Shown here piece by piece: positions 333 to 922 of a DNA stretch of 64,000 nucleotides. The notes beneath the pieces were generated by a model. It ran no database searches. It saw only the letters and a program-made list of their open reading frames with translations, and was not told the DNA's origin. Every line of letters starts with the position of its first letter. The stretch's first letter is position 1. The position numbers were made by a program, and so were the translations under genes. This stretch comes from the human T2T-CHM13v2.0 reference genome, Homo sapiens: assembly GCF_009914755.1 (NCBI RefSeq), contig NC_060928.1; one strand, 5' to 3'.

Positions 333-922
333 TTTAGCTTCTATTTCTCTAAGGCCTTCCCTAAGTTGGTCTTGCTCCATTTTAAAGATTTCCTCTACTC
401 CTCTTAGGCCATCATTTTCCTTAGTAACAAATCTTACATCCTGAAGGTTTTCATGAAGCTTCTGAGTCAATCTTAATTTCTGCGTTTCTACACTTTCCAG
501 AGTTACATTCCAGGCCTCTAACTGCTTCTTTAACTGACCTGTTTGATACATAGTTTCCCTAAGATCATTTTTTACTTTAAGAAGTTGAGGCTGGGCCTGG
601 CGGCTCATGCCTGTAATCCCAGCACTTTGGGAGGCCGAGGCGGGTGGATCATGAGGTCAGGAGATCGAGACCACCCTGGTCAACACGGTGAAACCTCCTC
701 TCTACTAAAAATACAAAAATTAGCTGGGTGTGATGACATGCATCTGTAATCCTAGTTACTTGGGAGACTTGAGGCAGGAGAATCGCTTGAACCCGGGAGG
801 CAGACATTGCAGTGAGCCGAGATCATGCCGTTGCACTCCAGGCGACAGAGCGAGACTCTGTCTCAAAAAAAAAAAAAAAAAAAAAAAAGAAGTTGATGTT
901 CTTTCTCCTGAAGTTCTTGGAT
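333..922 (-). pseudogene. Fossil long-type CENPE stalk exon interrupted by an Alu
   Basis: Removing 589-896 restores 282 nt open frame [20 protein letters not shown]...EQDQLREGLREIEAK with tcaag| acceptor and |gtaagc donor. Confidence 0.88.
589..886 (+). mobile_element. Alu (AluSc-like)
   Basis: Full dimer with poly-A; 10-bp TSD aagaagttga at 579-588 and 887-896. Confidence 0.95.

What the first reader, a model, noticed from the sequence alone, without database searches (positions are those of the whole stretch)
333..922. A CENP-E coiled-coil exon knocked out by an Alu, with its frame still intact
Seen: an antisense Alu with a perfect 10-bp TSD (aagaagttga) sits 26-36 nt into a sequence with acceptor tcaag|ATCCAAGAA (compare ttaag|ATCCAAGAG at exon 32) and donor AAA|gtaagc. 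Excising it gives exactly 94 stop-free codons, [94 protein letters not shown], a clear paralog of exons 27 and 33. With the Alu the exon is 590 nt (frameshift), and the in-frame acceptors in the Alu linker run into stops. From recall, human CENP-E goes from ...DALKAQ straight to another short repeat. Inference: an Alu removed (or landed in an already skipped) 94-aa, roughly 14-nm stalk segment in primates, and the remnant could act as a poison exon.
Basis: partly seen in the sequence, partly recalled or inferred. Interest (0 to 1): 0.85.

Follow-up and report, generated by a model that had tools for sequence, protein, structure and literature searches.

The report
Dead CENP-E exon split by Alu
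Human CENPE carries, inside one intron, the well-preserved remains of a 94-amino-acid coiled-coil exon that other placental mammals still use, interrupted by an old Alu element, so the human kinetochore motor has a slightly shorter stalk than that of most mammals.

Summary
On the minus strand, window 922..333 has an AG acceptor and a GTAAGC donor. An Alu (body 589-864, A run 865-888) lies antisense to the gene, flanked by a perfect 10-bp target-site duplication. Removing the Alu and one duplicate leaves 282 nt, 94 stop-free codons in phase 0.

It is the human counterpart of a real coding exon. The orthologous 94 residues sit exactly between the exon-34 and exon-35 counterparts in CENP-E models of about 50 named placental genera. 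Four intron-less, transcript-like contigs hold them too. The annotated human mRNA and a human-identical transcript-like contig join exon 34 directly to exon 35.

The Alu is old, about 8% non-CpG divergence and S-type. It is the only lesion visible in human; both splice sites still match those of working paralogous exons. An unnamed primate-like relative has lost the donor G.

Whether the Alu killed the exon or landed in one already skipped remains open, because no primate genomes were reachable. I put Alu-causal at about 0.6. Poison-exon use is untested. I rate this a good new example of a known kind, of moderate interest.

The parts
923..924 (-). AG of the 3' splice site of the dead exon
   Evidence: The acceptor context is like that of the working paralogous exons 29, 30 and 32, with pyrimidine fraction 0.61.
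897..922 (-). First 26 nt of the dead exon, upstream of the insertion. With the duplicate 896..887 this makes 36 nt, 12 codons.
887..896 (.). Target-site duplication copy next to the A tail
   Evidence: exact 10-mer, 2 occurrences in bases 1-1500.
865..888 (+). Alu A tail, a run of 24 A. It is a U run in the CENPE pre-mRNA. Its last two bases overlap the duplication.
589..864 (+). Alu body, dimeric with an A-rich linker, antisense to CENPE. It is S-type and shares left-arm features with the Y-like copy at 1822-2096.
   Evidence: 74-80% identical to 11 other Alu matches in the window; 20/246 non-CpG mismatches to the window consensus.
579..588 (.). Second copy of the target-site duplication
333..588 (-). 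Remaining 256 nt of the dead exon. 587..333 is 85 in-frame codons.
   Evidence: 71-72% identical to whale, camel and seal CENP-E models.
331..332 (-). GT of the 5' splice site (AAA|gtaagc)
   Evidence: The same G reads as A in the unnamed relatives P0152 and P0153.
701..706 (-). Two AGs after the U-rich Alu linker. Exons starting at 704 or 701 would be in phase but meet TAG or TGA.
   Evidence: frame 2.
590..598 (-). Two in-phase AGs at the left end of the Alu. An exon starting at 596 reads 88 stop-free codons. The pyrimidine tract is poor and use is not shown.
1109..1267 (-). Annotated exon 34, the 53-aa short repeat ending ...ALKAQ. It is the upstream neighbour of the dead exon.
   Evidence: Hub annotation.

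Best explanation
Window 922..333 (minus strand) is the human remnant of a 282-nt, phase 0-0 CENPE exon. That exon encodes one 94-residue module of the coiled-coil stalk and is a normal coding exon in placental mammals.

In the lineage leading to human, an S-type Alu inserted in antisense orientation 26-36 nt into the exon (the range reflects the duplicated 10 bp). This made the exon 590 nt long, out of frame and full of stops, and placed a run of about 24 U just inside it. I infer that the spliceosome then stopped defining it as an exon.

Because the exon is symmetrical (phase 0 on both sides) and is one of about ten similar modules, skipping it gave a viable CENP-E that is 94 residues (about 14 nm) shorter, and this form became fixed. 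Since then the remnant has drifted as intron sequence.

What is shown:
- the anatomy;
- orthology to a used exon;
- absence from human mRNA;
- the old age of the Alu;
- decay of the donor in a related primate-like sequence.

What is inferred:
- that the Alu was the disabling event;
- the route of repression (loss of exon definition, binding of hnRNPC-type repressors to the U run).
For: Anatomy.

Orthology:
- 123 of the 125 proteins fetched hold a segment 60-71 residues identical to the 94-codon reading.
- In the 26 representatives printed the segment is ungapped and directly follows the ...ALKAQ-type end of the exon-34 counterpart. It is followed by the exon-35 counterpart (by the exon-36 counterpart in bats and in one camel model).
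- The other 2 of 125 are marsupials, matched only at paralogue level.
- These rows were selected by likeness to the query. They show presence, not frequency.

Real splicing-in elsewhere: four unnamed contigs hold the exon and are too short to contain introns.
- P0071: 2732 aa in 8694 nt.
- P0078: 1895 aa in 8324 nt.
- P0127: 1445 aa in 4663 nt.
- P0137: 1136 aa in 4265 nt.
- All 8 listed isoform models of Pteropus vampyrus hold it.

Absence in human:
- It is not an exon of NM_001813.3 (hub table).
- P0126 (1248 aa in a 3837-nt contig, 53/53 identical to exon 34) joins exon 34 to the exon that lies at about window -380..-222.

Only lesion: the acceptor and donor match those of the working paralogous exons 29, 30 and 32.

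Age of the Alu: 20/246 non-CpG mismatches to the window's Alu consensus, similar to the S-like copies (8.7-9.6%) and well below the oldest copies (14-15%).

Decay pattern:
- Neutral simulation gives P(intact) 0.13 at 6% divergence but 0.04-0.05 at 10-12%.
- Human differs at 7/61 conserved columns. That fits about 10 expected for decay since the Alu (P = 0.22) better than about 15 for decay since early primates (P = 0.018).
Against: No primate genome or named primate protein could be reached. The order of events (Alu first or skipping first) was therefore not observed.

No primate appears among the best 120 of the 642 hits, although tree shrew, rabbit, squirrel and gundi do. If lemurs or tarsiers, which should predate an S-type Alu, kept the exon, they might have been expected there. 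This hints at an earlier loss, but scores near the cut-off make it weak.

The excess of human changes at conserved columns over working exons is not significant. It is 7/61 against 32/543 (Fisher p = 0.10), or p = 0.31 if exon 32 is included.

The expected counts and the simulation rest on assumed rates. The subfamily call rests partly on recalled diagnostic positions.

The repression route (U run, exon size) is inferred from general knowledge of Alu-exon repression (PMC5115870, abstract seen in the listing). It was not tested here.
Confidence: 0.6

Rival explanations
1. The exon had already fallen out of use in an early primate ancestor through a change not visible here, such as loss of splicing enhancers or a shift in regulators. 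The Alu later landed by chance in what was by then intron.
For: No primate is among the best 120 rows, although other Euarchontoglires are. The human sequence shows five changes shared with the unnamed relatives P0152 and P0153 at positions that are constant in most other mammals, so change began before those two lineages split. The excess of human changes over working exons is not significant.
Against: It needs an unseen cause while both splice sites stay as good as those of working paralogues. From the roughly 12 Alu matches in this 64-kb window, the chance of an Alu landing in a given 282-bp neutral stretch is roughly 5%. A longer neutral period makes the intact frame and sites less likely, 0.04-0.05 at 10-12% divergence. 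It also predicts more changes than seen (P = 0.018 for 7 or fewer when 15 are expected).
Confidence: 0.3
2. The remnant still works as a regulated unproductive ('poison') exon. Occasional use of the acceptor at 922, or of the Alu-linker AGs at 706-702, with the strong donor at 333 gives transcripts with premature stops that are degraded, tuning CENPE output. This can be true together with either account of the origin.
For: The donor AAA|gtaagc and the acceptor are intact. The Alu linker offers a U-rich tract followed by AG, and exons from 704 or 701 to 333 are in phase yet meet stops. Antisense Alus are the usual source of such exons (PMC5115870, abstract seen in the listing).
Against: No junction evidence of any kind was found. 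The intactness of the sites is within neutral expectation. In the unnamed relatives P0152 and P0153 the donor G is lost, which argues against conserved use. The gene symbol is not in the three supplementary files held for PMC5115870. Those files list coordinates, not symbols, so this says little.
Confidence: 0.1
3. The exon in other mammals is only a gene-prediction artefact carried from model to model, so nothing was lost in human.
For: Most rows are automatic predictions.
Against: Four intron-less transcript-like contigs from unnamed sources contain it. In the 26 representatives printed it has the same 94-residue length without gaps, and its sequence is conserved across nine orders. That is not expected of unspliced intron.
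Confidence: 0.02

Closest known systems
Exonic Alu insertions that cause exon skipping in human disease (for example the BRCA2 exon 3 founder insertion; recalled, no call)
   Same: An Alu lands inside a coding exon and the whole exon is then skipped.
   Different: Those are recent, rare and harmful alleles. This one is old, apparently fixed, and tolerated because the skip is in frame and removes one of many similar modules.
Loss of tropoelastin exon 34 and inactivation of CMAH in primates or human through Alu-mediated recombination (PMC3024322, passage read, citing Szabo 1999 and Hayakawa 2001)
   Same: Lineage-specific loss of a coding exon linked to Alu elements. In tropoelastin the lost exon is likewise part of a modular, repetitive protein.
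   Different: There the exon DNA was deleted or replaced by recombination between Alus. Here the exon DNA is all still present and is merely interrupted.
Alu insertion into a conserved exon followed by intronisation, CWF19L1 (PMC2394776, passages read)
   Same: An Alu entered an exon that is constitutive in mouse and changed how that exon is spliced in human.
   Different: In CWF19L1 new splice sites remove the Alu and the exon is kept in part. Here no GT lies in the upstream duplicate, so exact removal is not possible and the whole exon is dropped.
Antisense Alu exons repressed by hnRNPC and cleared by nonsense-mediated decay (PMC5115870, abstract seen in the listing)
   Same: Antisense Alu with long U runs and AGs next to a usable donor, and any inclusion would bring a premature stop.
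   Different: Those are new exons arising in introns. This is an old exon being lost, and its use as an Alu exon is not shown.

Membership tests
CENP-E long coiled-coil repeat exons (human exons 23, 27, 29, 30, 32, 33) | Length 91-97 codons, phase 0 at both ends | tested here: met
   94 codons after excision, phase 0 after exon 34.
CENP-E long coiled-coil repeat exons (human exons 23, 27, 29, 30, 32, 33) | Sequence likeness above chance to the other members | tested here: met
   Scores of 138-234 against shuffle maxima of 62-82 (200 shuffles each, 5 exons tested). Best match is exon 33, 48/92 aa.
CENP-E long coiled-coil repeat exons (human exons 23, 27, 29, 30, 32, 33) | Present in mature human mRNA | tested here: not met
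   Not in NM_001813.3 (hub table). P0126 joins exon 34 to exon 35. It is therefore a former member, a dead exon.
Orthologue of the placental CENP-E exon between the exon-34 and exon-35 counterparts | Same position, same length, higher identity than to any paralogue | tested here: met
   60-71 identical residues out of 92-94 aligned, directly after the ...ALKAQ-type end of the exon-34 counterpart, against 52% to the best human paralogue.
Alu SINE | About 280-bp dimer with A-rich linker, A tail and target-site duplication | tested here: met
   276-bp body, 24-A run, exact 10-bp duplication. It aligns over its full length to other Alus of the window.
Alu SINE | Subfamily (S, Sc-like) and age | tested here: inconclusive
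   Non-CpG divergence is 8.1% from a consensus of only 10 window copies, with left-arm features shared with the Y-like copy at 1822-2096. The subfamily name rests on recalled diagnostic positions. No reference consensus was available.
Poison (unproductive) exon | Observed inclusion in transcripts | not testable with these tools
   No RNA-seq junction data were reachable.
Poison (unproductive) exon | Inclusion introduces a premature stop | tested here: met
   All three frames of the 590-nt form have stops. Exons starting at 704 or 701 meet TAG or TGA.
Poison (unproductive) exon | Splice sites conserved in related species | tested here: not met
   The donor G is read as A in the unnamed primate-like ORFs P0152 and P0153.

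The most novel reading that the evidence does not exclude
A single fixed Alu insertion inside a constitutive coding exon of an essential mitotic motor removed one 94-residue stalk module in anthropoid primates. The remnant survives as a repressed, stop-carrying Alu-hybrid exon (acceptors at 922 or 704/701, donor at 333), so that CENPE output depends on the level of Alu-exon repressors such as hnRNPC. A rarer variant is that the in-phase AGs at the Alu's left end (exon start 596 or 590) give a low-level in-frame isoform that restores most of the module.
Probability: 0.1. Interest if true: 0.6.

Novelty: new member of a known kind. Interest (0 to 1): 0.45.

Why it matters
It explains an oddity of human CENP-E: two short repeats lie back to back where other mammals have short-long-short. 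It also shows that human CENP-E lacks a module that about 50 other placental genera keep.

It is a clean natural example of how a transposon hit in a coding exon can be survived, when the exon is symmetrical and the protein is modular.

It offers a natural experiment on whether about 14 nm of stalk matters for a kinetochore motor. Large stalk truncations are known to impair CENP-E (PMC4116301, abstract seen in the listing).

It bears on using mouse, dog or Xenopus CENP-E as stand-ins for the human protein.

I found no description of it in print, but only full texts of open papers were searched.

Tried and rejected
1. Reaching full-length primate proteins. An alignment of a tree-shrew protein with 21 human exon translations, meant to make a human-leaning profile, was badly misaligned (identities of 9-25% for most rows) and was not used. 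The last protein search, with exon 34 and 'longer', reached only proteins of up to 2000 residues and gave no named primate.

3. Searching the window's own genome with the exon found only the exon itself and a paralogous exon 1.5 kb downstream. There was no processed pseudogene that could have preserved an ancestral transcript.

4. Literature. No paper links CENP-E or CENPE with this Alu, a pseudoexon, a cryptic exon or exon duplication. The one CENP-E hit in a primate long-read paper was only a reference-list entry. One search timed out.

5. Supplements of PMC5115870. The symbol CENPE and its recalled Ensembl id are absent, but the files list hg19 coordinates.
   - A number-prefix look-up covering part of my recalled position of the gene (about 104.03-104.09 Mb) showed no chromosome-4 row among the passages printed.
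   - A phrase search found nothing, but its positive control also failed.
   - There is therefore no verdict on whether that study saw an Alu exon here.

6. Exact removal of the Alu as an intron was rejected: the upstream duplicate holds no GT.

7. The 'frame still intact' as a sign of function was rejected: it is within neutral expectation.

Full report
**What is there**

On the minus strand, which is the strand of CENPE, the window reads ...tctcaag|ATCCAAGAA from base 922 and AAA|gtaagc at base 333. An Alu lies inside this stretch.
- Its sense strand is on the + strand, with body 589-864 and a run of 24 A at 865-888.
- The 10-mer AAGAAGTTGA flanks it at 579-588 and 887-896. These are the only two occurrences in the first 1500 bases.
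- As it stands, the 590-nt stretch is out of frame and has stops in all three frames.
- Taking out the Alu and one copy of the duplication leaves 282 nt, which read as 94 codons without a stop.
- The annotated coding exons of the window concatenate to 1768 stop-free codons.

The splice-site contexts are like those of the working paralogous exons 29, 30 and 32, which start ...aag|ATCC and end AAA|gtaag or AAA|gtagg.

**It belongs to the CENP-E repeat family**

The 94-codon reading aligns with every long repeat exon of the gene. The best match is exon 33 (48/92 residues, 203/286 bases), followed by exon 27 (40/95 residues). Scores of 138-234 compare with maxima of 62-82 in 200 shuffles for each of five exons.

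**It is the counterpart of a used exon in other mammals**

A search with the 85 codons downstream of the Alu found CENP-E models of gray whale, camel, elephant seal and a murid rodent, at 62-72% identity over the whole query. A second search used the whale segment and its two neighbours. It gave 642 hits, of which the best 120 were listed.
- Of the 125 proteins held after these two searches, 123 carry a segment with 60-71 of 92-94 aligned residues identical to the human reading.
- In the 26 representatives I printed, the segment is ungapped. It directly follows the ...ALKAQ-type end of the exon-34 counterpart and precedes the exon-35 counterpart. Bats and one camel model go straight on to the exon-36 counterpart instead.
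- The two exceptions are marsupials, which match only at paralogue level.
- The named rows cover about 50 genera of nine placental orders: whales and even-toed ungulates, carnivores, odd-toed ungulates, bats, a pangolin, rodents, rabbit, tree shrew and an anteater.
- These rows were chosen by likeness to the query. They show that the exon is widespread, not how often it is skipped.

The exon really enters mRNA elsewhere. Four unnamed contigs hold it and are too short to contain introns: P0071 (2732 aa in 8694 nt), P0078 (1895 aa in 8324 nt), P0127 (1445 aa in 4663 nt) and P0137 (1136 aa in 4265 nt). All eight listed isoform models of one bat species also hold it.

**Human mRNA lacks it**

The stretch is not an exon of the selected RefSeq transcript (hub table). 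P0126 is an unnamed 1248-residue protein from a 3837-nt contig, identical to human exon 34 in 53 of 53 residues. It runs from ...ALKAQ straight into the next short repeat. That repeat is encoded about 550 bases downstream of the dead exon, at about window -380..-222.

Human CENP-E is given as 2701 residues (PMC8905165, passage read). Adding 94 gives 2795, close to the tree-shrew (2799) and rabbit (2790) models.

**Age of the Alu**

I aligned this Alu with nine other Alus of the window.
- It differs from their consensus at 20 of 246 non-CpG sites (8.1%).
- The S-like copies differ at 8.7-9.6% and the three oldest-looking copies at 14-15%.
- It shares left-arm features with the Y-like copy at 1822-2096 but has an S-type right arm.

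From recalled diagnostic positions I would call it Sc-like. Some of the 20 mismatches are then subfamily differences, and its own decay is nearer 6%. That points to an insertion roughly 30-45 million years ago, in anthropoid primates. This date is an inference from assumed rates and a small consensus.

**A related primate-like sequence is also decaying**

The search of cluster representatives gave two unnamed short open frames, P0152 and P0153.
- They match the last 51 codons of the human reading in 42 positions.
- They then read on through the donor into sequence that matches the translated human intron in 16 of 17 residues.
- The one difference in that read-through is isoleucine for valine at the donor codon, so the G of GT is an A there.
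- They share five departures from the general mammalian sequence with human. Each lineage then has several of its own.

This fits a close relative in which the exon is dead as well. I cannot say which animal it is, or whether it carries the Alu.

**Did the Alu cause the loss?**

For:
- It is the only lesion visible in human.
- A chance landing in a given 282-bp stretch is unlikely, roughly 5% from the Alu density of this window.
- A neutral simulation gives survival of frame, stop-free reading and both splice dinucleotides of 0.13 at 6% divergence. Survival falls to 0.04-0.05 at 10-12%, the divergence expected if the exon had been idle since early primates.
- Human differs from the other mammals at 7 of 61 well-conserved columns. 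That is compatible with about 10 expected for decay since the Alu (P = 0.22). It is less compatible with about 15 expected for decay since early primates (P = 0.018).

Against:
- The excess over working exons is not significant. It is 7/61 against 32/543 (p = 0.10), or p = 0.31 if the fast-changing exon 32 is counted.
- No primate appears among the best 120 rows, while tree shrew, rabbit and two rodents do. If Alu-less primates kept the exon, some might have been expected there.
- No primate genome could be read.

I therefore put the causal reading at about 0.6 and an earlier, unexplained loss at about 0.3.

**How skipping would follow (inferred)**

The insertion more than doubles the exon to 590 nt. 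It places a run of about 24 U some 36 nt inside the exon and brings in the Alu's own cryptic sites. Antisense Alu sequences are known targets of splicing repression by hnRNPC (PMC5115870, abstract seen in the listing). Because the exon is symmetrical, leaving it out keeps the frame.

Exact removal of the Alu as an intron is not possible, since the upstream duplicate has no GT.

**Poison-exon idea**

Any use of the acceptor at 922, or of the linker AGs (exon starts 704 or 701), with the donor at 333 would bring a premature stop. Two in-phase AGs at the Alu's left end (exon starts 596 and 590) would instead give a stop-free exon of 88 or 86 codons, though they follow a poor pyrimidine tract.

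No junction data were reachable. My look in the supplements of PMC5115870 gave no verdict. The gene symbol is absent, but the files are keyed by coordinates, and my coordinate search failed its positive control. Loss of the donor G in P0152 and P0153 argues against conserved use.

**Comparison with what is known, and novelty**

The closest known cases are listed below.
- Disease alleles in which an exonic Alu causes exon skipping (recalled, no call).
- Loss of tropoelastin exon 34 and inactivation of CMAH by Alu-mediated recombination (PMC3024322, passage read).
- Alu insertion into a conserved exon followed by intronisation in CWF19L1 (PMC2394776, passages read).

This case differs in that the exon DNA is complete but interrupted, the event is old and apparently fixed, and the gene is an essential mitotic motor. 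I found no paper describing it (open full texts only). It is a new member of a known kind.

**Verdict**

Interest is 0.45.

Noticed in passing
P0025, P0041, P0085, P0107 (bat CENP-E models), residues after the orthologous exon: In the four bat models printed, the orthologous exon is followed directly by the exon-36 counterpart. Bats therefore seem to lack the 53-residue short repeat that is human exon 35. This would be a separate gain or loss of a module in the same part of the stalk (74% query coverage).
   Followed up: partly
window 2911-3195 (exon 32): Human exon 32 differs from the other mammals at 13 of 55 well-conserved columns, against 2-8% in the other working exons 22-34. This could be fast change on the human lineage, or conversion or misalignment among paralogous repeats.
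   Followed up: no
window 589-864 (+) and 1822-2096 (-): The Alu in the dead exon and a Y-like Alu in the next intron upstream are in opposite orientation and flank exon 34 at about 250 and 550 bases. Such a pair could base-pair in the pre-mRNA and affect exon 34 splicing or back-splicing.
   Followed up: no
P0129 (giant panda, partial model, 349 aa): This old partial model joins the exon-34 counterpart directly to the exon-35 counterpart, without the exon in question. Other carnivore models hold the exon. The likely cause is a model or assembly gap, but real skipping is not excluded.
   Followed up: no
L002 474-767 (about window -2350..-2057): tblastn of residues 821-1248 of P0126 printed no match beyond residue 263 within L002. 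A further long-repeat paralogue lies at L002 474-767, matched only at 53% by the exon-36 part. What P0126 contains after residue 263 was not examined.
   Followed up: no
P0072, P0122 (marsupial CENP-E models, 3062 and 2874 aa): Marsupial models are longer and have no clear one-to-one counterpart of this exon (best 38-40 of 97 residues). The repeat array therefore differs between marsupials and placentals.
   Followed up: no
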